A stretch of DNA of 64,000 bases from a virus. Lineage: Duplodnaviria > Caudoviricetes. The notes below the pieces were generated by a model. It did no database searches, was not told the origin of the DNA, and saw only the letters and a program-made list of their open reading frames with translations. Location: positions 64,001 to 128,000 of IMG/VR virus record IMGVR_UViG_3300029288_000063. One strand, 5' to 3'. Both the position numbers and the translations under genes were made by a program. Numbering within the stretch: position 1 is the stretch's first letter; the number at the start of each line of letters is the position of its first letter. Below, in pieces: positions 7 to 62,685 of this stretch.

Positions 7-921
7 TTGGTGCCGTCGAAAGAGCGTGGGAATGTTACACTTGTGAAGAGTGAAAAGGGTAAGTGGGTTCCGCAGGATGCCAATAAGGAATTGGGGCGGG
101 ACTTTGACGCTGAGGCGAAGTTGTGTTGGGATTCCCTTCCTGATATGTTGGGGGAGTATATTGTGATGAAACGTAAAGACTTTGAGAAGATGGCGAGCCG
201 GGTGGCGTCGGATCCTTCCGTGTTGTATATGAGTGTTCCGATGGTTGGTCGTCTGAATCTGAATCAAGAGGGCGGCTCGTATGGCATTTTGGAAATTTCG
301 GAAGACTTCAAGCGGTCTGTGTTTGAAGCCATTCGTGAGCCGGGTATGGAGTACGATGGTGAGTATAAAGCCCACATCTCTGTGTTCACAGAAGACGAGA
401 TGGGTCAGCTTGTTCATCCGATTGAGGAGAGCGGGAAGGCGTTCAGATTCTCGTTGCGCTCGATTGAGACGGTCGAGCCGGAAGGTTGGGACGAGATGGA
501 GCGGGTTTGGTTTGTCACGGTTGAATCACCTGAGTTGGAGGCGTTGCGTTTGAAGTATGGTTTTCCGGCGAAGCTGAATGGTGGGCACGAATTCCACATT
601 ACGGTTGCCGTGAAGCCGAATGTGCGTCCATGTCTTGAAAACAGAATAAGTGCGATGGTATTGCGTGTCGCGTCGTGGTCGGTAGCATCGTGCGATTTGA
701 TTCGTACTGCAAAACCTTTGATTTCCGATATTCGCGTGGACACCAAGAAATGGCAGTTCTCATCGGGGCGTAAAATCCCTAGCGGGCGTGGGGCGTGGGC
801 GTTCGAGATAGGTGGGGAAGAGGTTATGATTCCCGGCACCCTCCAATATGCTGATGCGAAAAAGAAGGCCGTTGAGATGGCGAAGGCGAAGGGTGTCAGG
901 TCTATCGTGTTATTGCCGTGA
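7..921 (+). CDS. 2H phosphoesterase-domain protein (may be 5'-truncated)
   Basis: Two Hx(S/T) motifs: AHISV and FHITV. Confidence 0.7.
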   Translation: MVPSKERGNVTLVKSEKGKWVPQDANKELGRDFDAEAKLCWDSLPDMLGEYIVMKRKDFEKMASRVASDPSVLYMSVPMVGRLNLNQEGGSYGILEISEDFKRSVFEAIREPGMEYDGEYKAHISVFTEDEMGQLVHPIEESGKAFRFSLRSIETVEPEGWDEMERVWFVTVESPELEALRLKYGFPAKLNGGHEFHITVAVKPNVRPCLENRISAMVLRVASWSVASCDLIRTAKPLISDIRVDTKKWQFSSGRKIPSGRGAWAFEIGGEEVMIPGTLQYADAKKKAVEMAKAKGVRSIVLLP

Positions 922-932
922 GGTGAGGTGAT

Positions 933-2615
933 ATGGGTGATGCGCCGAGAGTTGTGATTTTGTCGTTTATTCCCCAGTATGGGGAGTTGACGTTTTTCAT
1001 TGGTGACAAGAAGTATGTTGCCAGTGGTGTTTCACCGTTTCACAAGAAACAGGTTGAATATATGTTGAAGCACGGTGCGAATGGACGTGCCATTAACTAC
1101 CTGAAGAAATTCAACCCGGAAAGGCTTGGTCAGAAGTTGGCGAAAGAATTGGTTGGTGTTGCAAGGTTGTTGTTGGCGTCCAGTTCGGAGAAAGAGGTGG
1201 AGCGGTTGCTTCGTGTTGTTTTACGGGGCACACAATGGGCAGGAAAGGCGCACGCCGTTGGTGGCTATGTCCGGGACGAGTTCATGGGTTTGGACGCGAA
1301 AGACTTGGATATCGTCGTTTCTGTGCCGGGCGGGTCTGAGAAGTTGACGAGGTATTTGTTCGGGTTGTTTCCCGGCTCCATAACCAATCCGCACCAAATG
1401 GGCGCGTCATATCCAATTTGGCAGATAACGTTCAGGGATGATATTGTCTTGGACGGTGAGGTCTATAAGACAAAGGGTGCGGTGATTGAGTTTGCTGATA
1501 CCATGAAGGAGCAATTCCCTGATGATACGTCGCGTCAGCGGAGTGTGCAGCCGGGGACGCTTGAGGAAGATATCGAGCGTCGTGATTTCACGACGAATAT
1601 GCTTTTGAAGGACCTTTCGACCGGTGAGATTGTTGATCTTACCGGTGTGAGTAAGAACGACATCGAGAAGGGTATCCTGCGCGGGCACCCCCGTGTTTCG
1701 CTGGATAAGATTTTCAGTGACGACCCATTGCGGATGATTCGACTTGTTCGGTTTCAGTGCAAGTATGGGTGGTCTATTCCGAAATCGGTTTTGCGGACAG
1801 TTCAGCGTAATGCGAGGCGGATTGAGATTGTTTCGGCCGAGCGCATTATGGGTGAGCTGACAAAGGTTATGAAGATTGGTAAATTGTCACAAGCCATCCG
1901 CCTGATGAAAATCACCGGGCTGTTGCAGTACGTGTTGCCGGAGGTTCAGGCGATGGTCGGGGTCAAGCAGCAGAAGGAGTTTCACGCCGAGGGTGATGTG
2001 TTCCGTCACACGTTGGCTGTTTTGCGTAATGCCCCGGCGACGGTTGAAGGGCAGTTGGCGGCGTTGCTTCATGATGTTGGGAAACCGGCGTCGCAGGAGA
2101 TGGTTGGGGAGGCGATTCACTTCTATGGTCACGAAGAGGTTGGGGCTGAGATGGCCTCGGCAATCCTGTATCGCCTGAAGTTTGACGCGGCGACTATCAA
2201 GAAGGTTGTTTCTGTTGTTCGGAGCCACATGCGTCCGTATCACCTTGTGAAGTCGGATGGAAAGGCAATTCGGAAGTTCATTCGAGACCTTGGTGACGAG
2301 GTTGTTGATGCGGTTTTGGATCAAGCCGAGGCGGACGAAAAGGGCAGTTTGCCTGTTGGGGACGACGTGTCGGTTGTGCGGGAAAAGATTCGCAAGGTGC
2401 GTGAATCGCCTGTGCAGGTGAAGAAGTTGCCGGTTTTGAATGGTCGTGAGATTATGTCCATTCTTGGTATTGGTCAGAACGAAAGGGATAGGCTGCCCGA
2501 GATTGGTGAGGCGGGAAAGTTCCTTTTGGATTTGGCGGATGAATATGCGTCTCACGGTGAAGAGTTGAGTAAGGGAGATGCGGCGAAGGCTTTGAGGAAA
2601 AGGATGTCGTTATGA
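933..2615 (+). CDS. cca: CCA-adding tRNA nucleotidyltransferase with HD domain and short N-terminal extension
   Basis: VGGYVRD, KDLDIV, RRDFT, DDPLRMIR, SAERI, LLHDVGK motifs. Confidence 0.9.
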   Translation: MGDAPRVVILSFIPQYGELTFFIGDKKYVASGVSPFHKKQVEYMLKHGANGRAINYLKKFNPERLGQKLAKELVGVARLLLASSSEKEVERLLRVVLRGTQWAGKAHAVGGYVRDEFMGLDAKDLDIVVSVPGGSEKLTRYLFGLFPGSITNPHQMGASYPIWQITFRDDIVLDGEVYKTKGAVIEFADTMKEQFPDDTSRQRSVQPGTLEEDIERRDFTTNMLLKDLSTGEIVDLTGVSKNDIEKGILRGHPRVSLDKIFSDDPLRMIRLVRFQCKYGWSIPKSVLRTVQRNARRIEIVSAERIMGELTKVMKIGKLSQAIRLMKITGLLQYVLPEVQAMVGVKQQKEFHAEGDVFRHTLAVLRNAPATVEGQLAALLHDVGKPASQEMVGEAIHFYGHEEVGAEMASAILYRLKFDAATIKKVVSVVRSHMRPYHLVKSDGKAIRKFIRDLGDEVVDAVLDQAEADEKGSLPVGDDVSVVREKIRKVRESPVQVKKLPVLNGREIMSILGIGQNERDRLPEIGEAGKFLLDLADEYASHGEELSKGDAAKALRKRMSL

Positions 2616-4020: not shown

Positions 4021-4083
4021 TGTCCGCTCTTCAGTCAAGGGTTACTTCTGGATGAAAAGTCTCTTGGCGATTTTTGGCGGACA
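4021..4083 (+). ncRNA. Y RNA-like ncRNA, minimal form
   Basis: TGTCCGC-TCTTCA-GTCAAGGG-TTACTTC...CTCTTGGC-GATTTTTG-GCGGACA. Confidence 0.65.
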
Positions 4084-4229: not shown

Positions 4230-4321
4230 TGCGGGGTCGAGTAGTCTGGATATGCTCATCGGTCTCATAAGCCGGTAGGGGATGAAACCCCTCGAAGGTT
4301 CAAATCCTTCCCCCGCGTCCA
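4230..4321 (+). tRNA. tRNA-Met(CAT), fMet-like acceptor stem, long variable arm
   Basis: Cloverleaf, CT-CAT-AA loop, GGTTCAAATCC, CCA. Confidence 0.85.
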
Positions 4322-4507: not shown

Positions 4508-6235
4508 ATGGGTACGATGAAGGGTATTGTTAAGAAGGCTGTTGCGAAGGCGAAGCTCCCCTCGGAGTGTCCGGATGCGATGGTGAACCGTGCAGGCGGT
4601 GTTGCGTTTGACATTTCCGACCCCGCCACGAAGCTTCTGACTATGACCGGTGGCAGCTTTTTCGCGGAACCGCGTTACTACAGTGACTCGGCGTGCCGCC
4701 CGAAGCGTCTGGCGTCCGGCAAGTTCGGCAAGCTGGAAGAGCGTCTGCGTCTGGCGTCCGACAAGGCCGCGAAGTTCGTCAACTGTGAAGAGCTGGATGA
4801 TGTTGCGAAGGAAATCATCGCGACGGCTGTCGATGTGGCGAATGGTTCCAGTCCGCGTGACTTGCTTGCGCTGGCGAACTGGCTGCGCAACGAGGGCAAT
4901 ATCCGTCTGACGCCGCAGGTGTTCCTTGTGCTGGCGTCACGTATGGAAGGTTCGAAGCCGTACGTGAAGAAGTACGTCGAGAAGATTGTGAAGCGTCCGG
5001 ACGAAATCAAGACCGTTCTGATGCTGTACCGTTACTTCTTCGGCATGAAGTGTCTGCCGAACGCGCTGGCGACCGGTCTGTCCGACCGTCTGTCCAAGAT
5101 TGGCGAGTCCGCCTTGATGAAGTACGATGGGAAGGACTTCCCGACGTGGAAGGACGTTTTGTGCTGGCTGCCCCGTGAAAAGGGTTGGCCGCTGTCCGAT
5201 GACCTTTCTGTTTATTTCAAGAAGGGTGTCGTGACGGACAAGACCCCGATTGCTCGTGACCGTTCGCTTCTGGCGAAGTGTGGTGAGTTCGACGCCAAGG
5301 CGCGTGCTCTTGCGAAGTCGTCCAATGTTAACTGGGAGGTTCTGCTCTCGCAGTTCGGCACGAGCGACTCCGGCAAGAAGGCTGTGTGGGAGTTCCTGAT
5401 TGCGGAAGACCTCGTCGGTTACATGGCGATGCTCCGTAACCTGCGGAACCTCGTTCAGGCGGGTGTTGGCAAGGACACGCTGAAGAATGTGTACGACAAG
5501 CTGTCCAATGCCGAAGAGGTCAAGCGGTCGAAGCAGCTTCCGTTCCGGTTCCTCGCCGCGTACAACGAGTTGGAGCATGTCGGTGCGTCCGGAAACATCT
5601 CCAAGATTCTGGAGGCTATCGAGAACGCGACTGAGGTTGCCATCGAGAATTGCCCGAAGTTCCCCGGCAGCACCATCGTCGCCGTGGATGACTCCGGCTC
5701 TATGGGAGCCGGAATCTCGCGGATGTCCTCGATGACCGCCTTCGACGCGGCGTGTTCGCTCGGTGCCATCTGTGCGCGTCGTGGTGAGGATGTCAACCTG
5801 TGGGCGTTTTCGGATGGTGTCCGTGAGGTCAATATCACGAAGCACACGACCATGATGGGCATCGCCAAGAAGGTCGGTAATCACAGTGGTGGCACCAACA
5901 CGTACCTCGTGATTCAGAAGATGATTGACGAGAAGCTGTTCCCAGACCGTCTGTTCATTTTCAGCGACATGCAGGCTTGGAACTCGGGTTGGGGTTCCGC
6001 GAACTGTGCCGACCTGTGGGCGAAGTATCGGCGTATGGGCGCGGCGGCTGGCAAGACGTGGCTGCACAGCGTCAACATCATGGGCTACGGCGACACGCCG
6101 TTCTGTGAGGCTGACAAGCGTTTGAACCTCATCGGTGGCTTTAACGAGGCGGTTCTGTCGATGGCGCTCAAGGCTGAGGGTGTGAATGGGGAGGACAACA
6201 TTCCGCCCATGTCCTACATCCGCGATAATTTCTAG
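4508..6235 (+). CDS. rsr: Ro60/Rsr-like TROVE + vWA RNA-binding protein
   Basis: NRAGGVAF, YMAMLRNLRN, SKQLPFRF, vWA DDSGSM and FSDMQ. Confidence 0.9.
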   Translation: MGTMKGIVKKAVAKAKLPSECPDAMVNRAGGVAFDISDPATKLLTMTGGSFFAEPRYYSDSACRPKRLASGKFGKLEERLRLASDKAAKFVNCEELDDVAKEIIATAVDVANGSSPRDLLALANWLRNEGNIRLTPQVFLVLASRMEGSKPYVKKYVEKIVKRPDEIKTVLMLYRYFFGMKCLPNALATGLSDRLSKIGESALMKYDGKDFPTWKDVLCWLPREKGWPLSDDLSVYFKKGVVTDKTPIARDRSLLAKCGEFDAKARALAKSSNVNWEVLLSQFGTSDSGKKAVWEFLIAEDLVGYMAMLRNLRNLVQAGVGKDTLKNVYDKLSNAEEVKRSKQLPFRFLAAYNELEHVGASGNISKILEAIENATEVAIENCPKFPGSTIVAVDDSGSMGAGISRMSSMTAFDAACSLGAICARRGEDVNLWAFSDGVREVNITKHTTMMGIAKKVGNHSGGTNTYLVIQKMIDEKLFPDRLFIFSDMQAWNSGWGSANCADLWAKYRRMGAAAGKTWLHSVNIMGYGDTPFCEADKRLNLIGGFNEAVLSMALKAEGVNGEDNIPPMSYIRDNF

Positions 6236-9681: not shown

Positions 9682-9772
9682 ACGGGTTGGTTTCCATGAA
9701 GTCTATGGGTCAAGGGTTTAACCCTTGACCTTTTTTTTATATTCTTCCGTTATAGACAACATGGAGACTATT

Positions 9773-11302
9773 ATGGAATCGGAAGAGAAAACTAGGTATA
9801 AGGCGATTTTTGATAGCCTGATGATGGGTGTTGTAATTATTGGTCAGGACTTTCGTATCGCCGCCTACAATGAACAAATGCGTGCTTGGTTTCCCGAAGT
9901 TCGTGTGGGGATGTTTTGCCACGATATTCTTGGTTGTGGCTCCGAGTGCAACGGCGTTGGTTGCTTGGTGCATCAAACCTTTATTGATGGGTGTCGTCAC
10001 GAAAAAAAGTTCCGGGTTGTCAAGGACGACGAAGAAATTAAGGTTTACAGGATGGTTGTGTATCCGATGCGTCAACCGAGTGGTGAACAAACTATTGCGG
10101 CTGCAATTAGGGTTGTTGAGGACGTCACGGAGTGTGCCAATCGTGAGGCGACGGATATTCAGACGCTTCAGTTGGCCGCCGTTGGTCAGTTAGCTGCCGG
10201 TATTGCGCATGAGTTCAACAATATAAACTCTGTAGTAAAGGGTCATCTTGAGTTGTTATACCAAGATGACTCGTTATCACAGAAGAATCGTGATCAGATA
10301 AAGGTTATGTTGGAGGTTGTTCGTCAGGGGATAGATATTACCAAGAACATGTTGATGTTTGCCCGTGACAGGAAGGGTCGTGCAACTGGTACGTTTATTG
10401 CTGATATTGTTCGTGACGTGCTCTCTATTATTAGTAACGACCTAAGGTCGGAGGGCGTTGAGGTTATTGTTGACCATCAACCGAACGTGCGCGTGTTGGT
10501 GAACGTGTCTCAGATGGGTCAGGTGATCATCAACTTGCTGCTTAACGCCCGGCACGCGCTTACAGGTAGGAACATAAAGCGATTGACGATTCGTTCGTGG
10601 TGCGACTCAAAATCGGCGTACATCTCTGTTGAAGATACAGGGTGCGGTATTGCTGAGAAGAATATCAAGAAACTGTTTAGCCCGTTTTTTACAACCAAGG
10701 GTGAACACGCCGAATCCGGTTCGCAGATGTCATATGTAAAGGGTACGGGGCTTGGGTTGTCGATTTGTCATACTATTGTCGAGAAACACCACTCCGGCAA
10801 GATTCTTGTGGAAAGCAAAGAGGGTGTTGGGTCAAAGTTTACGGTTGTTTTGCCGTTGTTTGAAGGTCCGGTTGAGATTAAAAAGAGCAGCACTGTAATG
10901 ATGAAAGCTCTTACTCCGGGTAATGGTGAAAGGGTCTTGGTTGTAGATGATGAGCCAAAGATTTCAAGTGTTATAAAAATGGTGTTGACGAATCAGGGAT
11001 ATTCCGTTGTATGTTGCTCTGATAGTTTAAAGGCTTTGAAGCTTTATAATGAGAAACCGTTTGACGTAGTTATTTCGGATATTAAGATGCCGGGTATTAG
11101 TGGTCTTGAGATGGCTGAATACCTGTATGAGATGAAACCGCGCCCGGTGACGATTCTTATGACTGGTGCCTTGCAGGATGAGGCGTCGGTGAAGCCTCCT
11201 AAAGCAGATGCCATGCTGACTAAACCATTTGCGTTTGAGGATATGCTGGCAATTATTAGTTTAGGTCTTTTTGGTCGTAAATCAGCAAAAGATATTGCCT
11301 AA
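9773..11302 (+). CDS. hybrid sensor histidine kinase (PAS-HisKA-HATPase-REC)
   Basis: AHEFNN, N box LLNA, DTGCG, FFTTK, GTGLGL, VVDDE, SDIKMP. Confidence 0.92.
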   Translation: MESEEKTRYKAIFDSLMMGVVIIGQDFRIAAYNEQMRAWFPEVRVGMFCHDILGCGSECNGVGCLVHQTFIDGCRHEKKFRVVKDDEEIKVYRMVVYPMRQPSGEQTIAAAIRVVEDVTECANREATDIQTLQLAAVGQLAAGIAHEFNNINSVVKGHLELLYQDDSLSQKNRDQIKVMLEVVRQGIDITKNMLMFARDRKGRATGTFIADIVRDVLSIISNDLRSEGVEVIVDHQPNVRVLVNVSQMGQVIINLLLNARHALTGRNIKRLTIRSWCDSKSAYISVEDTGCGIAEKNIKKLFSPFFTTKGEHAESGSQMSYVKGTGLGLSICHTIVEKHHSGKILVESKEGVGSKFTVVLPLFEGPVEIKKSSTVMMKALTPGNGERVLVVDDEPKISSVIKMVLTNQGYSVVCCSDSLKALKLYNEKPFDVVISDIKMPGISGLEMAEYLYEMKPRPVTILMTGALQDEASVKPPKADAMLTKPFAFEDMLAIISLGLFGRKSAKDIA

Positions 11303-42933: not shown

Positions 42934-42985
42934 TTTTGAAAATCAAAGTCGCGAGACTTGTATAATAGTAACGATGGGTTTTTAT

Positions 42986-43094
42986 CAGCACGCTTCAGAC
43001 ATGGGTTACTTCTTTTCTCATACAAAAGACCTGACGGTTCGACTCCGTCGTTGGGTGGCCCCGGTAACGTCGCCTGTGTCGCTTTTTGGTGCTG
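42986..43094 (+). ncRNA. Y RNA-like ncRNA
   Basis: CAGCAC-GCTTCA-GACATGGG-TTACTTC ... T arm ... CCTGTGTC-GCTTTTTG-GTGCTG. Confidence 0.7.
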
Positions 43095-43106
43095 GTTTTT
43101 CGGTTT

Positions 43107-43247
43107 GCGTCACACTTCAGGATGGACATACTTCTGACGCTTAATAGCCGGCTGCGGGTTCGATTCCCGTCGGTCAACTTCGGTTGGCTGTTGCTCATGG
43201 TTGAGCCGTTTGTTCGGTTGAGCCGTTCGTTCGACTTTTGGTGACGC
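43107..43247 (+). ncRNA. Y RNA-like ncRNA with permuted tRNA domain
   Basis: Shared terminal module; T arm, UUCG-closed acceptor-like stem, D arm. Confidence 0.75.
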
Positions 43248-43258
43248 TTTTGTATTGC

Positions 43259-43332
43259 GACGGAGGAGTTGGGTTCGAGTCCCGACCGGAAGCCCATACG
43301 GGATTCCGTGGCGTAACAGGCAGCGTGCCGTC
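43259..43332 (+). ncRNA. stand-alone permuted tRNA-like element
   Basis: GACGG/CCGTC closing stem, T arm GGGTTCGAGTCCC, looped acceptor stem, D-like arm. Confidence 0.55.
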
Positions 43333-43345
43333 ATCTTGTTTTTTT

Positions 43346-43505
43346 CCACACGCTTCAGCGATGGGTTACTTCCATGCTAAGGACGAGGTCGCAGGTTCGA
43401 ATCCTGCTCCCCCAACCCTTGCCCCTGTGATTCTGCGGGGGTATGGGCTGGGGGATGGCTCAGCGGTAGAGCGCGTAAACTAGCCTGTTGCGACTTTTGG
43501 TGTGG
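43346..43505 (+). ncRNA. Y RNA-like ncRNA with permuted tRNA domain
   Basis: Shared module; GCAGGTTCGAATCCTGC precedes GGCTCAGCGGTAGAGC. Confidence 0.8.
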
Positions 43506-43508
43506 ATT

Positions 43509-43990: not shown

Positions 43991-44581
43991 AAAAAAGATT
44001 CGAAGAAGGTTCCAGTTTTTTCAAATATCCTCGATAGTGTGGTGTAGAATAGAACGAAAGGATTTTGACAAGCTACTGCGGTGTAAGTGCCGCCTCGGGT
44101 TGTGAAAAGGTCGGTCCAATCAACCGACCCAAGCGAACGGTTCGAGTCCGTCCAAGTTGGCAAGTAAAGTCGGCTGATTACCGAAAACACTTGTCGGGTT
44201 GGGTTCCCTCGGGTGAGGGCGAAATCGCCAAACCGACTGTTTTGTTCTTTGAAAACCACCGACAATTCGCCTAATGGGTTACGTCATCGGTGCCACCATC
44301 ACTGATGTACGTGTAAAACGCATAAGGCATCCCTAGTGAGTTGTCAACCGAGTCTTGTATGGTCGGCCGTTATATGGGATAGGTGGGTTTCATCGTTGTC
44401 GGTATACGATGAATTTAAGATTGGTGCCTCGTGGGATGTACGTTTGGCGCAAAATCGGGGTCTGCGGTTCGAGTCCGCAGTCGAAGAACCCGGAAACGGG
44501 AAAGGAATACCCCGGTGGGTGTAGCGGAGACAAATAGCCGGTAGCCAGCGTGGCGAACAAGCATCCCGTTTTGAAGTTTTT

Positions 44582-44647
44582 TTCGCACGCTTCTGTTGTG
44601 GGTTACTTCCTTTTGACGAAAATACCCATAACAACTTTTGGTGCGAA
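44582..44647 (+). ncRNA. Y RNA-like ncRNA, minimal form
   Basis: TTCGCAC-GCTTC-TGTTGTGGGT-TACTTC...ACCCATAACA-ACTTTTG-GTGCGAA. Confidence 0.7.
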
Positions 44648-45071: not shown

Positions 45072-45136
45072 ATTCGCACTCTTCAGTGACGGGATACTTC
45101 TCATACAAGCGACCTGTTGCGATTCTTGGTGCGAAT
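45072..45136 (+). ncRNA. Y RNA-like ncRNA, minimal form
   Basis: ATTCGCAC-TCTTCA-GTGACGGG-ATACTTC...CCTGTTGC-GATTCTTG-GTGCGAAT. Confidence 0.7.
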
Positions 45137-55251: not shown

Positions 55252-55473
55252 ATGATTGACAACCACACTGTTGGTTCTGTGAAACGCATTTCGCCGGTGT
55301 TGAATAGGAATGCTATTGTAAAGAGTGGTGGAGTCCTCCAACAGTCGGAGGAGGTTGGTTATGTTGTAAGGGAGAAAATCGGCGTTGGAGTATATAACCC
55401 ATCCGCGTTAAATCTGTTCTTAAAAAAAGAGTCTGAAGGGGCGTTGCCTGTTTATGATGAAGACCCGAATTGA
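55252..55473 (+). CDS. hypothetical protein
   Basis: GAGG SD. Confidence 0.45.
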   Translation: MIDNHTVGSVKRISPVLNRNAIVKSGGVLQQSEEVGYVVREKIGVGVYNPSALNLFLKKESEGALPVYDEDPN

Positions 55474-57641
55474 AATTCTGTTATGAACTTGATATAGGAA
55501 AGCTGAATATGATCAGGAGAGTTCTTTTTTCGATAGTAGTGGTTGCTGCTATTTGCACTGTTGTTTTAGTGACGATATCAATGACTGTCGTCAAAAATGG
55601 ATTCTCTTCTGTAGATGAGGATCGGGTGATTGAATCCTCACACCTTGTTCGTTCTATCGTTCAAAGAGAATTGCTCGGTTTGGCCAGCACTGTTGGGGAT
55701 TGGTCACGGTGGGATGATGCTTGGGAGTATGTTAATCAAGACGGCAAAGATAGGTCTTTTGTCGAACAAAATATTGATCTCGCTTCACTATTACAGTTGC
55801 GCGTGTTTTATGTCATGTTTCTTGGACGGGATGGACATCCTATTTCCGAATTTGTTGTTCGTGACGGGGACATCTATGAGGTTCCGAATTCCGAGCTGTC
55901 CTTGGCGTCTATAGATGGTTTTCAATCGGCATCTGAACGGTGCATGCGCGGCGAGGTTGTGCAGGGTTTGTCTTGGATAGGAGACAAGATGTCCTTGGTG
56001 GCAATGTCGTCTATCTCTAAGTCGGACGGTTCGTGTGTCGGAAACGGTATGTTGGTTTTCTGTCGTGATGCGTCCGGTATGGTTTCGGAAATTAACAAGA
56101 CGTTTGAGTCGTTTTCGATATCCGGTGATTGTTCAAGCGAGATAATGAACGACCTCGTTATCAATACCTCCGATTCGAGCGTGTCTGGGACTTTTCTTGT
56201 TCCCAGTGTTGAGGGAGGGAAAAACTATCTCGCAAGCCTATCTGTTCCGAGCTTTTCCGAGTTGCAGGGCAACCGCATTATCCTTGTTTTCGTTTTTGCG
56301 AGTATAGGGTTTGTTTTCGTTGTTTCGATTGCGCTGTGGAAGGTTGTTGATAGGATGGTATTATCGAGGCTTTCTGTCACAATGTCCGCTGTCAAAGAGA
56401 TTGGTCGTTCTGCCGATGTGACAAAGAAGCTGCCCGGTGGTGAATGTTCTGATGAGTTTGGCGTTTTCATTCACAACTTGAACGATATGCTTGAATCTAT
56501 TCGCGTGTCAGAAGAAAAGACAAAAGAATCAGAAAATGCTTTAAAACGTTCTGAGCGAGTAACACTTCTTGGCAAATTCGCGGAGGGTATTGCGCACGAC
56601 CTGAATAACCTTTTGGCAATTATTAAGGGCTATGCGGACTCGTTGAAGTTTGCCGGTTCACTTTCTGAATCTCTCGTGCTGTGTGACAACATAAGTTCCA
56701 CAGTCGGAGAATGTACGGCTTTGATTGGTAAGATTTTGTCGTTTTCGAGGCGTGGTAATATCAACTTTGTGCCGGTTGATCTGCACCCATTGTTGGGTGA
56801 TATATGTTCGATGTTTCATTACGCCATAGAGAAAAAGAGTGTATGTTTTGAATCGGTTATGGGGGCGGAGAACAGTGTGGTTCATGGGAACAAGTCTGAA
56901 ATTCAAAATGCCATATTGAGTCTGTTGGTTAATGCCCGAGAGGCTGTTTCTGATAATGGTCATATCTTTATCAAATCAAGAAACGTTATCGACCCTGACG
57001 GTTTGTCTTCTGGTGAATATGTGGAGGTGGAGGTGAGTGATGACGGTGTTGGAATTCCTCCGTCGATTATGAAAAATCTTTTTGTTCCATTTCAAACAAC
57101 AAAGGAATATGGAAAGGGTCTTGGACTTTCTTTTGTTCATGGGACGGCGGAAAGACACAAAGGAAGGGTAAGTGTTTCCAGTATTCCCGGTAAAACATCT
57201 GTGCTGCTCTTGATTCCGTGCTCTGAAAAAAAGGCTAGTGTTCCGGAGAAAAACAGCGTTATGAGACATAAGACTCCGTGTGTTGTGCATGTCGAAGATG
57301 AGGCGGCCATTCGTGAAATCGTTAAGTTGCAGCTTGAGGATGATGGGTTTTGTGTGAAATCTTTTGCGCATGGTGATGGTGCGATTAGTTATGTTCGTGA
57401 ACACAAGCAAGATGTTGACTTTGCGATTCTCGACTTCGCGGTTCCTCCTGTGGATGGTGTTTACATCTTTCATGAGATGAGAAAGATTATACCAACTCTT
57501 CCAGTTGCGTTTATGACTGGTTTTTGTGACGCTAGGGCTGAAGACTTGCGTGCCGAGGGGGCGGTCGGTGTTTTCGAGAAACCAATCAATTTCAAGTCAG
57601 TTCTTAGTCTTCTGAACGATATACTTGGAAAGCGTGGGTAG
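55470..57641 (+). CDS. membrane hybrid histidine kinase (CHASE4-HAMP-HisKA-HATPase-REC)
   Basis: DWSRWDD, two TMs, DEFG, AHDLNN, DDGVG, GLGL, VEDE. Confidence 0.9.
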   Translation: MKFCYELDIGKLNMIRRVLFSIVVVAAICTVVLVTISMTVVKNGFSSVDEDRVIESSHLVRSIVQRELLGLASTVGDWSRWDDAWEYVNQDGKDRSFVEQNIDLASLLQLRVFYVMFLGRDGHPISEFVVRDGDIYEVPNSELSLASIDGFQSASERCMRGEVVQGLSWIGDKMSLVAMSSISKSDGSCVGNGMLVFCRDASGMVSEINKTFESFSISGDCSSEIMNDLVINTSDSSVSGTFLVPSVEGGKNYLASLSVPSFSELQGNRIILVFVFASIGFVFVVSIALWKVVDRMVLSRLSVTMSAVKEIGRSADVTKKLPGGECSDEFGVFIHNLNDMLESIRVSEEKTKESENALKRSERVTLLGKFAEGIAHDLNNLLAIIKGYADSLKFAGSLSESLVLCDNISSTVGECTALIGKILSFSRRGNINFVPVDLHPLLGDICSMFHYAIEKKSVCFESVMGAENSVVHGNKSEIQNAILSLLVNAREAVSDNGHIFIKSRNVIDPDGLSSGEYVEVEVSDDGVGIPPSIMKNLFVPFQTTKEYGKGLGLSFVHGTAERHKGRVSVSSIPGKTSVLLLIPCSEKKASVPEKNSVMRHKTPCVVHVEDEAAIREIVKLQLEDDGFCVKSFAHGDGAISYVREHKQDVDFAILDFAVPPVDGVYIFHEMRKIIPTLPVAFMTGFCDARAEDLRAEGAVGVFEKPINFKSVLSLLNDILGKRG

Positions 57642-57706
57642 CTCAATGGCAGAGCGAGGGCTTCTAAAGCCCTGCGTTATGGGTTCGAGTCCCATCCTAC
57701 GCACCA
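57632..57706 (+). tRNA. amber suppressor tRNA (CTA)
   Basis: AGGGC-TT-CTA-AA-GCCCT, canonical D and T arms, CCA. Confidence 0.85.
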
Positions 57707-60278: not shown

Positions 60279-60433
60279 GCAGCACTCTTCAGTATGGAGT
60301 TACTTCCTTTCAAACCGAAAATGTGGGTTCGATTCCCACACCTGATGCCGCAACACACGACGGTTCGCCGTCCAGTCGGGTTCGTCTAATGGTAGGACTC
60401 GGGCGCAAGTCTCCATGCGTTCTTTGGTGCTGT
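60279..60433 (+). ncRNA. Y RNA-like ncRNA with permuted Glu-like tRNA domain
   Basis: Shared module; CTTTCAA-ACCGA, T arm, then GTCTAATGGTAGGAC D arm. Confidence 0.8.
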
Positions 60434-60441
60434 TTTTTCAT

Positions 60442-60516
60442 GTCCCGCTCGTCTAGCGGCTAGGACGACAGCTTTTCAAGCTGTAAACCGGAGTTCGATT
60501 CTCCGGCGGGATGCCA
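60442..60516 (+). tRNA. tRNA-Glu(TTC)
   Basis: Cloverleaf, CCA. Confidence 0.92.
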
Positions 60517-60523
60517 AATTCAT

Positions 60524-60610
60524 GCGGGTATGCTGGAATGGCAGACAGGTTGCGTTGAGAGCGCAATGGACGAATTGTCCGTGAGGGTTCAAGTCCCTCT
60601 ATCCGCACCA
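60524..60610 (+). tRNA. tRNA-Leu(GAG)
   Basis: Long variable arm, CCA. Confidence 0.92.
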
Positions 60611-60615
60611 AATTT

Positions 60616-60814
60616 ACCAGTCGTCTGAGGAAGCTCGGGACTGCACCGCGAAAACGGAGGAGGATTGTATAATCTGATTGGACTCCGGAGGCAGCAACCC
60701 CAAATAGGCCCGGAGCGGGAGCGCGGCGTGTTGAAGGGCGGGTTGGGGGCTTAGACCAATGCACGGTTGAAAAACAGAATCCCGGCTACGTAGAACTGTG
60801 CGCGGTCGACTGGT
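60616..60814 (+). ncRNA. rnpB: RNase P RNA, minimal and circularly permuted
   Basis: GAGGAAGCTCGGGA, GCAGCAACCCCAAATAGG, GGGT, TAGACCAATG, ACAGAATCCCGGCTA conserved blocks. Confidence 0.85.
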
Positions 60815-60820
60815 TATTAT

Positions 60821-60897
60821 GTCTCGGTAGGCGAATGGTTGAAGCCGTCACCCCTTCAAGGTGAAAATTACGGGTTCGAATCCCGTCCGAGATACCA
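60821..60897 (+). tRNA. tRNA-Glu(TTC), C33 variant
   Basis: TCACC-CC-TTC-AA-GGTGA, CCA. Confidence 0.8.
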
Positions 60898-60985
60898 CAA
60901 GAAAAGGGAAAGCCCCCCTATGGGAACCATGAAGGCCAAATGGGTTCTCGCAGGCTTGACAACCGGAGAGTACGGTGCCAATGAT

Positions 60986-61061
60986 GTCCCGCTCGTCTAG
61001 TGGTCTAGGATGGCAGATTCTCAGTCTGCGGACAGGGGTTCGAATCCCCTGCGGGATACCA
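60986..61061 (+). tRNA. tRNA-Glu(CTC)
   Basis: Cloverleaf, CCA. Confidence 0.92.
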
Positions 61062-61125
61062 AGATTTCCCTTCGGGTTGACTGGAGGTTGTTCGTACCGC
61101 TGTCGAGGTATGGCGGCGGTAGTTT

Positions 61126-61201
61126 GGAAGGTTAGCCTACGTGGTCACGGCGTCTGCCTGAAGAGCAGAAGAAGTCGGTTCGATTCCGACACCTTCCACC
61201 A
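61126..61201 (+). tRNA. tRNA-Phe(GAA)
   Basis: Cloverleaf, CCA. Confidence 0.85.
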
Positions 61202-61204
61202 TAA

Positions 61205-61290
61205 GCGGGTGTGCTGAAATGGCATACAGGTCGCGCTCAGAACGCGATGCCCGTAAGGGCGTGTGGGTTCGACTCCCTCCATCCGCACCA
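61205..61290 (+). tRNA. tRNA-Leu(CAG)
   Basis: Long variable arm, CCA. Confidence 0.92.
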
Positions 61291-61298
61291 AAAACAAT

Positions 61299-61387
61299 GC
61301 GAGTGTGCTGGAACTGGCATACAGGTCTGTCTCAAAAGCAGATGGGTGAAAAATCCCGTGTGGGTTCGACTCCCACCGCTCGCACCA
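61299..61387 (+). tRNA. tRNA-Leu(CAA)
   Basis: Long variable arm, CCA. Confidence 0.92.
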
Positions 61388-61395
61388 AATATATG

Positions 61396-61544
61396 ATGAC
61401 GCGCTTCGGTAGGGAGATACTTCCATAAGGCTGGTGTCCCTCGGGACGTGTGGGTTCGAGTCCCACAGACTTAACGAAAGTTGGGCGATGGCGAAATGGC
61501 AGACGCACCGGAAAAAAGAAACTCCTTGCGACTTTTGGCGTCAT
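61396..61544 (+). ncRNA. Y RNA-like ncRNA with permuted Leu-like (class II) tRNA domain
   Basis: Shared module; variable arm and T arm precede GGCGAAATGGCAGACGC. Confidence 0.8.
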
Positions 61545-61555
61545 TTTTGAATTTT

Positions 61556-61718
61556 CGGCACGCTTCAGTGATGGGTTACTTCTCACCCAATGAGAGAGGT
61601 CGTAGGGTTCGAATCCCTACCCGCCCGGCCATGAAGGCTTTCGATGAGAGCCTTCATACTTCGGGCGGTAGCTCAGTGGTAGAGCGCTACAACTAGCCTG
61701 TTGCGACTTTTGGTGCCG
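61556..61718 (+). ncRNA. Y RNA-like ncRNA with permuted tRNA domain
   Basis: Shared module; T arm, extended closed acceptor stem, GCTCAGTGGTAGAGC. Confidence 0.8.
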
Positions 61719-61735
61719 TTTGTTGCGTTTTATGT

Positions 61736-61974: not shown

Positions 61975-62072
61975 AATATAGGCGTATAGCTCAATTGGTA
62001 GAGCACCGGTTCCAAAAACCTTCGGTTTGATAAATAATTTTATAATCTCGTGTCTGTTGAATGGAGACAGAC

Positions 62073-62600
62073 ATGAGGAAGACAAAGTGGACAGATGAAG
62101 AATTGTCGTTGTATGTTGCCGAGTCGTTTGGTTTTTCTGACCTTTTGAGAAAGTTAAAACTTTCAGTATCTAGTGGAAATTACAAGACAATAAGAAGACG
62201 TATAGAAAGTCTTTGTTTGGATACTAGGCATTGGACTGGAAAGTCTCAATGTGGAGATCGAAACCCAAGTTTTCGTCACAGAATTCCGCTTGAACAGATT
62301 TTGGTAGAGAATGGGTTTTATAGGAATCTGCCAAGATTGAAACAGAGGTTGATTAAAGAGGGTTTGTTAGAAAACAAGTGTGCTATTTGCGGACTTAGTT
62401 CTGTGTGGAATAATAAGAAAATTGTTATGATTTTGGATCATGTAAATGGTGAATCATTTGATCATAGATTTGAAAATTTGAGACTTGTTTGTCCGAATTG
62501 TAATAGTCAGATTGATACTTTTGCTGGAAGAAACAAGAAGAAAAAACGAACGGATGCAGCAAGTGGGTGTTGCGGTCAGACTCCAAATCTGACGTCTTAG
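62073..62600 (+). CDS. HNH endonuclease
   Basis: CAICG, LDHVNG..DHRFENLRLVCPNCN; AT-rich. Confidence 0.9.
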   Translation: MRKTKWTDEELSLYVAESFGFSDLLRKLKLSVSSGNYKTIRRRIESLCLDTRHWTGKSQCGDRNPSFRHRIPLEQILVENGFYRNLPRLKQRLIKEGLLENKCAICGLSSVWNNKKIVMILDHVNGESFDHRFENLRLVCPNCNSQIDTFAGRNKKKKRTDAASGCCGQTPNLTS

Positions 62601-62627: not shown

Positions 62628-62685
62628 ATCTTGTAATCCGTTCAAAACCGGCGGTTGGGGGTTCGAGTCCCTCTGCGCCTGCCAT

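What the first reader, a model, noticed from the sequence alone, without database searches (positions are those of the whole stretch)
60279..61718. Y-like RNAs appear to mimic different tRNA isotypes and keep anticodon-loop remnants
Seen: 60279-60433 has CT-TTC-AA and a Glu/Gln-type D arm, and sits next to tRNA-Glu. 61396-61544 has a long variable arm and a Leu-type D loop, and follows the tRNA-Leu genes. 42986-43094 has a TTTT-CTCATAC-AAAA stem-loop, and CTCATAC recurs in 45072-45136. Inference: repeated independent capture of tRNAs into the module, perhaps as non-chargeable decoys for anticodon nucleases or tRNA-modifying toxins.
Basis: inference. Interest (0 to 1): 0.7.

Follow-up and report, generated by a model that had tools for sequence, protein, structure and literature searches.

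The report
Phage Y RNAs built from tRNAs
A 253-kb phage carries nine small RNAs that share one handle for its Ro60 protein; two of them hold a rearranged copy of the phage's own leucine or glutamate tRNA, which suggests these tRNA look-alikes are rebuilt repeatedly from neighbouring tRNA genes.

Summary
The window lies in a 253-kb phage that encodes Ro60. It holds exactly nine Y-RNA-like genes with one conserved, covarying handle. Three lie in the flagged stretch: 60279-60433, 61396-61544 and 61555-61719.

- **61396-61544:** the un-permuted module is a class-II tRNA-Leu. Its D arm matches the phage's own tRNA-Leu(UAG) at 18 of 19 bases, and it has a long variable arm.
- **60279-60433:** it has a Glu/Gln-type D arm, the acceptor top and G73 of the adjacent tRNA-Glu, and CUUUCAA in the anticodon-loop position.
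- **Other modules:** these are the generic YrlA type.

Relatives from metagenomes add two points. Many of these RNAs encode N73-CCA after the acceptor 3' strand. Many also keep a hairpin like an anticodon arm (U33 in 10 of 10).

Best reading: these are YrlA-like partner RNAs of phage Ro60, and their tRNA modules are exchanged with tandem tRNA genes. This fits the published dimeric-tRNA origin model.

An AU test could not reject a single clade of all the modules, and no orthologues of the two special RNAs were found. The scan has already noted Ro60-linked handle RNAs in tRNA arrays of other phages. What is new here is the isotype signal, the encoded CCA and the anticodon remnants.

The parts
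4508..6235 (+). Ro60/Rsr orthologue (575 aa), the presumed protein partner of the Y RNAs
   Evidence: Pfam TROVE 84.9 bits and vWA_Ro60 37.6 bits. It is the only TROVE match in the 253-kb genome.
4021..4083 (+). Ya, a short Y RNA (handle plus apical hairpin), 425 nt upstream of the Ro60 gene
   Evidence: Fold; model R1 66.6 bits (it was part of the seed alignment).
42985..43095 (+). Yb: handle, anticodon-arm-like hairpin (loop CUCAUAC at 43017-43023), T arm and a mini acceptor hairpin; no D arm
   Evidence: R1 55.4 bits. The hairpin-to-T-arm stretch of 41 nt is identical in the syntenic relative L112, while the inner helix covaries.
43107..43247 (+). Yc: handle plus permuted tRNA-like module (T arm, acceptor closed by UUCG, D arm GCUC/GAGC), with a 17-nt tandem duplication in its 3' part
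   Evidence: R1 29.5 bits; module parsed.
43345..43506 (+). Yd: generic YrlA-type module with an anticodon-arm-like hairpin (loop AUGCUAA), a 7-bp acceptor, A73-CCC and a 34-nt spacer
   Evidence: R1 43.4 bits; Rfam YrlA 31.1 bits over the module only; in a clade of Y modules with support 99/96.
44582..44647 (+). Ye, a short Y RNA
   Evidence: R1 71.2 bits. The orthologue in L112 (2122-2187) has the same apical part and a covarying helix.
45073..45135 (+). Yf, a short Y RNA with apical loop CUCAUAC (45100-45106); it looks like a deletion derivative of a Yb-type RNA
   Evidence: Fold; R1 60.5 bits; CCUG repeats flank the part missing relative to Yb (inference).
60279..60433 (+). Yg: handle plus a Glu-like permuted tRNA module. 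Heptamer CUUUCAA 60307-60313, 4-nt variable loop, T arm 60323-60339, acceptor 3' strand 60340-60346, G73-CCG 60347-60350, spacer hairpin, acceptor 5' strand 60375-60381, D arm 60382-60398.
   Evidence: R1 47.3 bits; D arm 17 of 18 identical to tRNA-Gln(UUG), Glu next; clade with two tRNA-Glu genes, support 99/92; parsed.
61396..61544 (+). Yh: handle plus a Leu-like (class II) permuted tRNA module. Heptamer CAUAAGG 61423-61429, variable arm 61435-61449, T arm 61450-61466, degenerate acceptor region, tRNA-Leu 5' half 61482-61513.
   Evidence: R1 39.4 bits; 20 of 20 identity from the 3' end of the variable arm through the T arm to a tRNA-Leu; only annotated tRNA-Leu genes are hit in INPHARED.
61555..61719 (+). 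Yi: generic YrlA-type module with a 7-bp acceptor, G73-CCA and a 36-nt spacer hairpin
   Evidence: R1 45.1 bits; Rfam YrlA 26 bits; parsed.
60442..60516 (+). tRNA-Glu(UUC) next to Yg. It shares with Yg the pairs G1.U72, U2-A71 and C3-G70, G73, the D arm type and the T loop.
61205..61387 (+). tRNA-Leu(CAG) and tRNA-Leu(CAA), directly upstream of Yh
   Evidence: 19 of 20 identity from the 3' end of the variable arm through the T arm between tRNA-Leu(CAA) and Yh.
7..2615 (+). 2H phosphoesterase (7-921) and CCA-adding/poly(A) polymerase-type enzyme with HD domain (933-2615), upstream of Ya and the Ro60 gene: RNA-repair context
   Evidence: Pfam 2H-SAK, PolyA_pol, PolyA_pol_RNAbd and HD. RtcB and an RNA ligase lie elsewhere in the genome.

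Best explanation
The nine elements are paralogous Y RNAs of the YrlA kind, the RNA partners of the phage's own Ro60 protein.

Anatomy. All nine share one handle: an outer stem, an internal loop with invariant CUUCAG opposite a U-rich strand ending in UUGG, a covarying inner helix, and then UACUUC. The apical 'cargo' is modular. It is a small hairpin in Ya, Ye and Yf. In the other six it is a circularly permuted tRNA-like module, in the order T arm, acceptor, D arm.

Expression. They lie inside the two tRNA operons and are most likely co-transcribed and processed with the tRNAs.

Origin of the modules. The tRNA modules are rebuilt or overwritten from tandem tRNA genes of the array. The first tRNA supplies the anticodon region, variable region, T arm, acceptor 3' strand and N73-CCA. 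The intergenic spacer closes the acceptor. The second tRNA supplies the acceptor 5' strand, the D arm and the 5' strand of the anticodon stem. Yh was made in this way from tRNA-Leu genes and Yg from tRNA-Glu. Yc, Yd and Yi carry the older, generic YrlA-type module.

Function. Inferred from the published Ro60/Y RNA tether model, and not shown here: the handle binds Ro60 and the tRNA module docks tRNA-binding proteins. The Leu and Glu versions would offer isotype-specific docking, for example to synthetases, tRNA repair enzymes or tRNA-targeting nucleases.

What is shown and what is inferred. Shown: the handle family, its covariation, its co-occurrence with Ro60, the isotype resemblance, the encoded CCA and the anticodon-like hairpins. 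Inferred: Ro60 binding, processing, the direction of exchange and the function.
For: - Ro60 gene in the window.
- Handle: 10 of 13 predicted pairs have compensatory changes among 14 short forms.
- Model R1 finds exactly nine hits in the window, including the six long forms it was not trained on.
- The same motif occurs twice or more in five viral contigs, and four of them encode a TROVE protein. One is a complete 200.9-kb phage with five Y RNAs directly upstream of its Ro60 gene and no tRNA gene.
- Yh: D arm 18 of 19 identical to tRNA-Leu(UAG). Acceptor 5' strand, D arm and anticodon-stem strand are 28 of 32 identical to tRNA-Leu(UAA). The 3' end of the variable arm through the T arm is 20 of 20 identical to another tRNA-Leu. 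All top hits are Leu. In INPHARED only annotated tRNA-Leu genes are hit.
- Yg: Glx-type D arm, Glu-type acceptor top, G73, 4-nt variable loop, and a clade with two tRNA-Glu genes (99/92).
- Best identity to a tRNA against best identity to another Y module: Yh 0.74 against 0.59, Yg 0.67 against 0.60. The other modules show no difference.
- N73-CCA follows the acceptor 3' strand in 6 of 20 parsed modules (p about 5e-7), and in two more seen later.
- Anticodon-arm-like hairpins: U33 in 10 of 10, R37 in 9 of 10, and the three loop-proximal pairs covary.
- The dimeric-tRNA origin model is published (bioRxiv 10.1101/312249).
- RNA-repair genes are present in the genome.
Against: - No RNA data: expression, ends and Ro60 binding are all unshown.
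- Rfam YrlA scores stay far below the gathering score (at most 31 bits in the window, against 69). They cover only the tRNA-like part, so the handle is not the catalogued one.
- The AU test does not reject one clade for all 16 modules (p 0.21; 80 columns only).
- Yh has no proper acceptor stem (4 pairs plus 3 mismatches) and Yc carries a duplication, so some copies may be decaying.
- No orthologues of Yg or Yh were found, so their conservation is untested.
- The 3' half of Yg is only weakly Glu-like.
Confidence: 0.65

Rival explanations
1. One reading: the modules are non-chargeable decoys. They soak up host anticodon nucleases or tRNA-modifying toxins, each copy imitating one target isotype.
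For: - Anticodon-loop signatures (U33, R37) are conserved in relatives.
- Isotype-matching triplets sit in register in Yg and Yh.
- The phage invests in tRNA repair: RtcB, an RNA ligase, a 2H phosphoesterase and a CCA-adding enzyme. This implies pressure from tRNA-cleaving defences (PMC7824862).
Against: - In Yg and Yh the heptamer lies in an open internal loop, not in a closed anticodon loop.
- Loop triplets in relatives (AUU, ACU, GCU, CCU, UAU, UAG) mostly match no known nuclease target.
- A decoy needs no Ro60 handle.
- Many copies encode CCA, so 'non-chargeable' is not evident.
- No defence gene or assay was examined.
Confidence: 0.15
2. Yg and Yh are non-functional recombination debris: chimeras between a Y RNA gene and neighbouring tRNA genes in a recombination-prone array, on their way to decay.
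For: - The acceptor stem of Yh is broken, and its two halves match different tRNA-Leu genes best.
- Yc carries a 17-nt tandem duplication.
- No orthologues were found.
- The array is full of endonuclease cassettes and split tRNA genes.
Against: - The handles of both score as full-length matches, 39-47 bits.
- U8, A14, G18-G19, A21 and the T loop are intact, and so are the D and T stems.
- Non-generic D arms recur in unrelated contigs (L077 4509-4645 Gln-type; L077 4148-4283).
Confidence: 0.12
3. All tRNA-like modules descend from one ancestral YrlA module. The likeness of Yh to Leu and of Yg to Glu is convergence or chance.
For: The AU test does not reject a single clade (p 0.21). All modules share the same permuted order and the same handle.
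Against: - Identity of 18 of 19, 28 of 32 and 20 of 20 to the phage's own tRNA-Leu genes extends into positions that do not determine identity: the acceptor and anticodon-stem strands.
- A class-II variable arm is present.
- The free ML tree places Yg with tRNA-Glu with support 99/92.
Confidence: 0.08

Closest known systems
YrlA Y RNAs of bacteria and mycobacteriophages with Rsr/Ro60 (Rfam RF02553; Chen et al. 2014, PMC4201824; structure: bioRxiv 10.1101/312249)
   Same: - Encoded together with a Ro60 orthologue on the same strand.
- The 5' and 3' ends form a long stem.
- The effector domain is a tRNA look-alike in the order T arm, closed acceptor, D arm.
- Yc, Yd and Yi have the GCUC/GAGC D arm of the Rfam consensus.
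- M. smegmatis YrlA is cleaved by RNase P and receives CCA, which matches the CCA encoded here.
   Different: - The handle sequence is different, and Rfam scores stay at or below 31 bits in the window (gathering score 69).
- There are nine paralogues, scattered through the tRNA operons as far as 57 kb from the Ro60 gene.
[quoted passage not shown]
- Many copies keep an anticodon-arm-like hairpin and an encoded N73-CCA, both of which the solved YrlA lacks.
Dimeric-tRNA origin model for YrlA (Sim and Wolin 2018, as cited in bioRxiv 10.1101/312249)
   Same: As the model predicts, the T arm comes from an upstream tRNA and the D arm from a downstream tRNA, with the junction between them closing the acceptor. 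The CCA, the spacer and the anticodon-region remnants found here are the expected footprints.
   Different: The model derives the acceptor-like stem from the spacer and the Ro60-binding stem from the leftover tRNA parts. Here the acceptor strands come from the tRNAs themselves and only the closing loop is spacer-like. The handle is a shared, conserved unit, so only the cargo seems to be renewed, and more than once.
Yrl1 and Yrl2 of Thermus phage phiLo with phage Ro60 (PMC12135203)
   Same: Phage-encoded Ro60 with several phage-encoded Y-like RNAs. These were shown to bind the phage Ro60 and to form complexes with host PNPase.
   Different: The paper's text, searched for 'tRNA-like', describes no tRNA-like module. 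Those RNAs were picked by a CGAA motif next to the gene, not within a tRNA array.
Circularly permuted tRNA genes (Cyanidioschyzon merolae; Soma et al. 2007, as cited in bioRxiv 10.1101/312249)
   Same: The 3' half lies upstream of the 5' half, the acceptor is closed by an intervening sequence that starts after the CCA, and the termini pair with each other.
   Different: Those genes mature into real tRNAs through a splicing endonuclease and a ligase acting at a bulge-helix-bulge motif. Here the paired termini form a long conserved Ro60-type handle, and no such processing is known in bacteria.

Membership tests
YrlA (Rfam RF02553) | Reaches the family's gathering score (69 bits) | tested here: not met
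   Best scores are 31.1 bits (Yd), 26 (Yi) and 21.5 (Yc). Yg and Yh give no hit. Relatives reach at most 39.6 bits.
YrlA (Rfam RF02553) | Encoded with a Ro60/TROVE protein on the same strand | tested here: met
   Ro60 gene at 4508-6235 on the + strand, with all nine RNAs also on +. Ya lies 425 nt upstream and the others 37-57 kb downstream. Four of five viral contigs with the motif encode a TROVE protein.
YrlA (Rfam RF02553) | tRNA-like domain in the order T arm, closed acceptor-like stem, D arm, with the nucleotides needed for the tRNA tertiary fold | tested here: met
   Yc, Yd, Yg, Yh and Yi have this order. U8, A14, GG in the D loop and UUCGA in the T loop are present. Yb has no D arm, and Ya, Ye and Yf have no module (YrlB-like).
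YrlA (Rfam RF02553) | Nearly invariant D and T stem sequences (Chen et al. 2014; bioRxiv 10.1101/312249) | tested here: not met
   The D stems are GCUC/GAGC in Yc, Yd and Yi, GUCU/GGAC in Yg and GCG/CGC in Yh. The T stems also differ.
YrlA (Rfam RF02553) | Stem formed by the two ends that carries the known Ro60-binding motif (GNCGAA...G), and binding to Ro60 | tested here: inconclusive
   A covarying terminal stem is present. Its conserved letters (CUUCAG, UACUUC, GCGAYUUUUGG) are not the published motif. Binding cannot be tested with these tools.
Canonical tRNA (Rfam RF00005) | Contiguous cloverleaf called by ARAGORN, or reaching the Rfam gathering score (29 bits) | tested here: not met
   ARAGORN calls none of them. 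The Rfam tRNA model gives only 18.7 bits on the 5' part of Yd and 15.8 bits on that of Yg.
tRNA-Leu (class II), as source of the Yh module | Long variable arm, Leu-type D arm with a 3-bp stem, A73 | tested here: met
   The variable arm is 14-15 nt and the D arm is 18 of 19 identical to tRNA-Leu(UAG). All top hits are Leu, and an A follows the acceptor 3' strand. No isotype covariance models were available.
tRNA-Glu, as source of the Yg module | Glu-type D arm (U11-A24, U13.G22), no nucleotide 47, U2-A71, anticodon UUC/CUC. This identity set comes from the E. coli literature and is recalled, not looked up. | tested here: inconclusive
   All the listed features can be read in the sequence, and the tree gives 99/92 with two tRNA-Glu genes. 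However, the best single D-arm match is tRNA-Gln(UUG), and the 3' half is only weakly Glu-like.
Permuted tRNA genes that mature into tRNAs | Bulge-helix-bulge processing site at the paired termini, and a mature tRNA product | not testable with these tools
   No bulge-helix-bulge motif is evident in the handle. The products are unknown.

The most novel reading that the evidence does not exclude
The copies that encode N73-CCA are opened in vivo: RNase P cuts 5' of the acceptor 5' strand and the 3' trailer is trimmed back to the CCA. The result is a two-piece, tRNA-shaped RNA with a free CCA end and a Ro60 handle that emerges beside the anticodon stem. Such a molecule could be recognised, and perhaps charged, by the matching synthetase (Glu for Yg). 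It would tie Ro60 to isotype-specific tRNA surveillance or repair.
Probability: 0.1. Interest if true: 0.85.

Novelty: new variant of a known kind. Interest (0 to 1): 0.6.

Why it matters
Bacterial Y RNAs of the YrlA type are known tRNA mimics with almost invariant D and T stems. Whether they arose once or many times from dimeric tRNA transcripts is an open question in the papers read here.

This phage and its metagenomic relatives show what look like fresh intermediates: one conserved Ro60 handle carrying tRNA modules of recognisable isotype, with the CCA, the spacer and the anticodon remnants still in place. This makes the origin model testable on sequence data.

It also raises a concrete functional question: do different Y RNAs direct Ro60 to different tRNA-specific proteins during infection? 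The phage's 57 tRNA genes, RtcB, an RNA ligase and a CCA-adding enzyme suggest that tRNA damage and repair matter to it.

Tried and rejected
- **Rfam at gathering score:** only tRNAs were found.
- **Ro60 protein as query in viral contigs:** no relative was confirmed.
- **Neighbouring histidine kinase:** The second tRNA block of relatives was therefore never reached.
- **Pattern specific to the Yg handle:** no hit in viral contigs.
- **blastn of Yg against INPHARED:** no match.
- **Quick ML tree:** its search was poorer than the constrained searches, so its AU tests mean nothing. The careful tree still could not reject a single clade of all modules.
- **Pro-like and Lys-like readings:** whole-sequence local alignment is dominated by the T arm. 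The Pro-like score of Yd and the Lys-like score of Yi are no higher than their scores against other Y modules, so I dropped both readings.
- **Gly-like reading of L077 4148-4283:** it rests partly on my memory of the E. coli tRNA-Gly sequence and on a small margin, so I treat it as weak.
- **Not available:** isotype-specific covariance models were not at hand.
Full report
**Setting.** The window is bases 64001-128000 of a 253-kb IMG/VR phage record. It holds 47 of the genome's 57 tRNA genes, in two operon-like blocks. It also holds a Ro60/Rsr orthologue at 4508-6235 (TROVE 84.9 bits, Ro60-type vWA 37.6 bits). Upstream of that gene lie a 2H phosphoesterase and a CCA-adding-type enzyme. RtcB and an RNA ligase lie elsewhere in the genome.

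**The elements.**
- Motif scans and folding show nine RNAs with one architecture. Each has an outer stem of 6-8 pairs. Next comes an internal loop with CUUCAG on the 5' side and a U-rich strand ending in UUGG on the 3' side. Then follow an inner helix and UACUUC.
- After UACUUC there is either a small hairpin (Ya 4021-4083, Ye 44582-44647, Yf 45073-45135) or a larger cargo. The cargo-bearing forms are Yb 42985-43095, Yc 43107-43247, Yd 43345-43506, Yg 60279-60433, Yh 61396-61544 and Yi 61555-61719.
- An alignment of 14 short forms from this and other contigs gives 13 consensus pairs, 10 of them with compensatory changes.
- A covariance model built from that alignment finds exactly nine hits in the window, all on the + strand. 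The six long forms, which were not in the seed, score 29.5-55.4 bits.

**Link to Ro60.**
- An exact scan for the 5' motif in viral contigs gave five contigs with two or more true copies, and four of these encode a TROVE protein.
- One is a complete 200.9-kb phage with five such RNAs directly upstream of its Ro60 gene and no tRNA gene at all.
- A metagenome scan gave many more, mostly inside tRNA arrays. Contig L112 is syntenic with the window's first block and carries orthologues of Yb and Ye. Their apical parts are unchanged and their helices covary.

**Cargo anatomy.** Five cargos (Yc, Yd, Yg, Yh, Yi) read T arm, acceptor 3' strand, closing insert, acceptor 5' strand, D arm. This is the YrlA order described by Chen et al. 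(PMC4201824). Rfam's YrlA model aligns only to this part and stays far below its threshold, so the handle is not the catalogued one.

**Isotype test.** I un-permuted each module and compared it with 92 phage tRNAs, and later with 162.
- **Yh.** Its D arm is 18 of 19 identical to the genome's tRNA-Leu(UAG). Its acceptor 5' strand, D arm and anticodon-stem strand are 28 of 32 identical to tRNA-Leu(UAA). The 20 bases from the 3' end of the variable arm through the T arm are identical to a third tRNA-Leu. It has a 14-15-nt variable arm. The six best D-arm hits are all Leu (p about 6e-7). In INPHARED the only matches are annotated tRNA-Leu genes of Caulobacter phages. The two halves match different Leu genes best and the acceptor strands barely pair, as expected if two different adjacent genes supplied them.
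- **Yg.** Its D arm is 17 of 18 identical to tRNA-Gln(UUG), and the Glu genes come next. The first three acceptor pairs, G73 and the T loop are those of the adjacent tRNA-Glu. The variable loop has four bases, as in the Glu genes.
- **The tree.** In a careful ML tree Yg groups with two tRNA-Glu genes (99/92), while Yd sits in a clade of Y modules (99/96).
- **The others.** For every module other than Yg and Yh, the best tRNA and the best Y module are equally close (0.64-0.76), so I read no isotype into them.
- **Limit.** The AU test does not reject a single clade of all 16 modules (p 0.21, 80 columns).

**Footprints of tRNA genes.** The base after the 7-bp acceptor 3' strand is followed by CCA in Yi, CCC in Yd and CCG in Yg. 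In relatives N73-CCA is exact in five of the parsed modules and in two more seen later. In all, 6 of 20 parsed modules have it (p about 5e-7). The phage's tRNA genes also encode CCA. The insert therefore looks like CCA plus an intergenic spacer. This is what the dimeric-tRNA origin model cited in bioRxiv 10.1101/312249 predicts.

**Anticodon remnants.**
- In ten distinct RNAs the stretch between UACUUC and the variable loop forms a 3-5-bp stem with a 7-nt loop. The stem sits five (or four) bases before the T stem, where an anticodon arm would sit. U33 is present in 10 of 10 and a purine at position 37 in 9 of 10, and the three loop-proximal pairs covary.
- The loop of Yb (CUCAUAC) resembles the Met loops of the phage. 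The 41-nt stretch that holds it, from the hairpin through the T arm, is identical in L112.
- In Yg and Yh the strand after the D arm pairs with positions 39-43 instead. The heptamer just upstream reads CUUUCAA in Yg (UUC, Glu) and CAUAAGG in Yh (UAA, Leu). The Yh reading uses the register that gives five pairs.
- A third case, L077 4148-4283, shows GCC with a body that seems Gly-like, but this is weak.
- In the generic modules the loop triplets do not fit the body, so I do not claim a general rule.

**Function.** Nothing here tests it. Published work shows that Y RNAs tether Ro60 to effectors such as PNPase, also for a phage Ro60 (PMC12135203). Jumbo-phage Ro60 has been placed among RNA-repair systems (PMC7824862). 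I therefore read the handle as the Ro60 site and the module as a dock for tRNA-binding proteins. The decoy idea remains possible but has no support of its own.

**Earlier notes of this scan.** They describe the two tRNA operons of this genome and, in other phages, Ro60-linked handle RNAs with tRNA-like bodies. I did not re-test those notes.

Noticed in passing
window 60609-60800: Between tRNA-Leu and tRNA-Glu, inside the flagged interval, lies a roughly 190-nt RNA that matches the archaeal RNase P model weakly (31.7 bits, E 8e-6; gathering score 84). The GAGGAA..UC and ACAGAA..GGCUAC core motifs align. It could be a minimal phage RNase P RNA. No such hit appeared in four related tRNA-array contigs.
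   Followed up: partly
window 43258-43336: A permuted tRNA-like element (T arm, long closed acceptor, D-like arm) closed by a plain 5-7-bp stem and followed by a U run, with no Ro60-type handle. It lies between Yc and Yd. Model R1 does not find it.
   Followed up: partly
window 4230-4321; also L009 about 2871-2947, L016 about 676-752, and locus L090: An initiator-like tRNA-Met gene lies between a short Y RNA and the Ro60 gene. In this phage it carries an extra hairpin in the variable region and ends in GUCCA. The order short Y RNA, tRNA-Met, Ro60 recurs in two other phage contigs, and a short Y RNA followed by tRNA-Met recurs in one metagenome contig.
   Followed up: partly
window 43197-43230: Yc holds a direct tandem duplication of about 17 nt (GGTTGAGCCGTT.GTTC, twice) in the strand after its D arm.
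   Followed up: no
window 61975-62046, 62061-62600, about 62640-62685: The 5' half of a tRNA is followed by an HNH endonuclease ORF and an orphan T arm. Further orphan T loops lie at 44139, 44466, 49203, 50984, 52029 and 52213. This fits the split tRNA genes with endonuclease cassettes noted earlier by the scan.
   Followed up: no
window 57632-57706: A tRNA with anticodon CUA (called Pyl by ARAGORN) scores 66.8 bits as a normal tRNA. It is a possible amber suppressor.
   Followed up: no
G001 (200.9-kb complete phage), 177843-181060: This phage has a Ro60 gene and five handle RNAs, two with tRNA-like modules, but ARAGORN finds no tRNA gene in the whole genome. The RNAs therefore do not depend on a tRNA array.
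   Followed up: partly
L009 2594-2790 and L016 391-590: A long member of the family (about 190 nt) carries repeated hairpins with GGAAGAC/GGAAAGAC instead of a tRNA module. This is a third kind of cargo on the same handle.
   Followed up: no
window 43355-43415 and 60294-60347: The Rfam tRNA model aligns end to end, but weakly (18.7 and 15.8 bits), to the 5' two-thirds of Yd and Yg. This stretch is the handle 5' strand, the anticodon-like region, the T arm and the acceptor 3' strand. The handle strand GCUUCAG...GGGUUA also faintly recalls a D arm. Both would fit an origin of the handle itself from the first tRNA of a dimer.
   Followed up: no
window 9725-11302 and 55470-57641: Two hybrid histidine kinase/response-regulator genes lie in this phage, one of them inside the tRNA region. 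The second has homologues at 41-44% identity on a 7.9-kb contig and on a 344-kb contig.
   Followed up: partly
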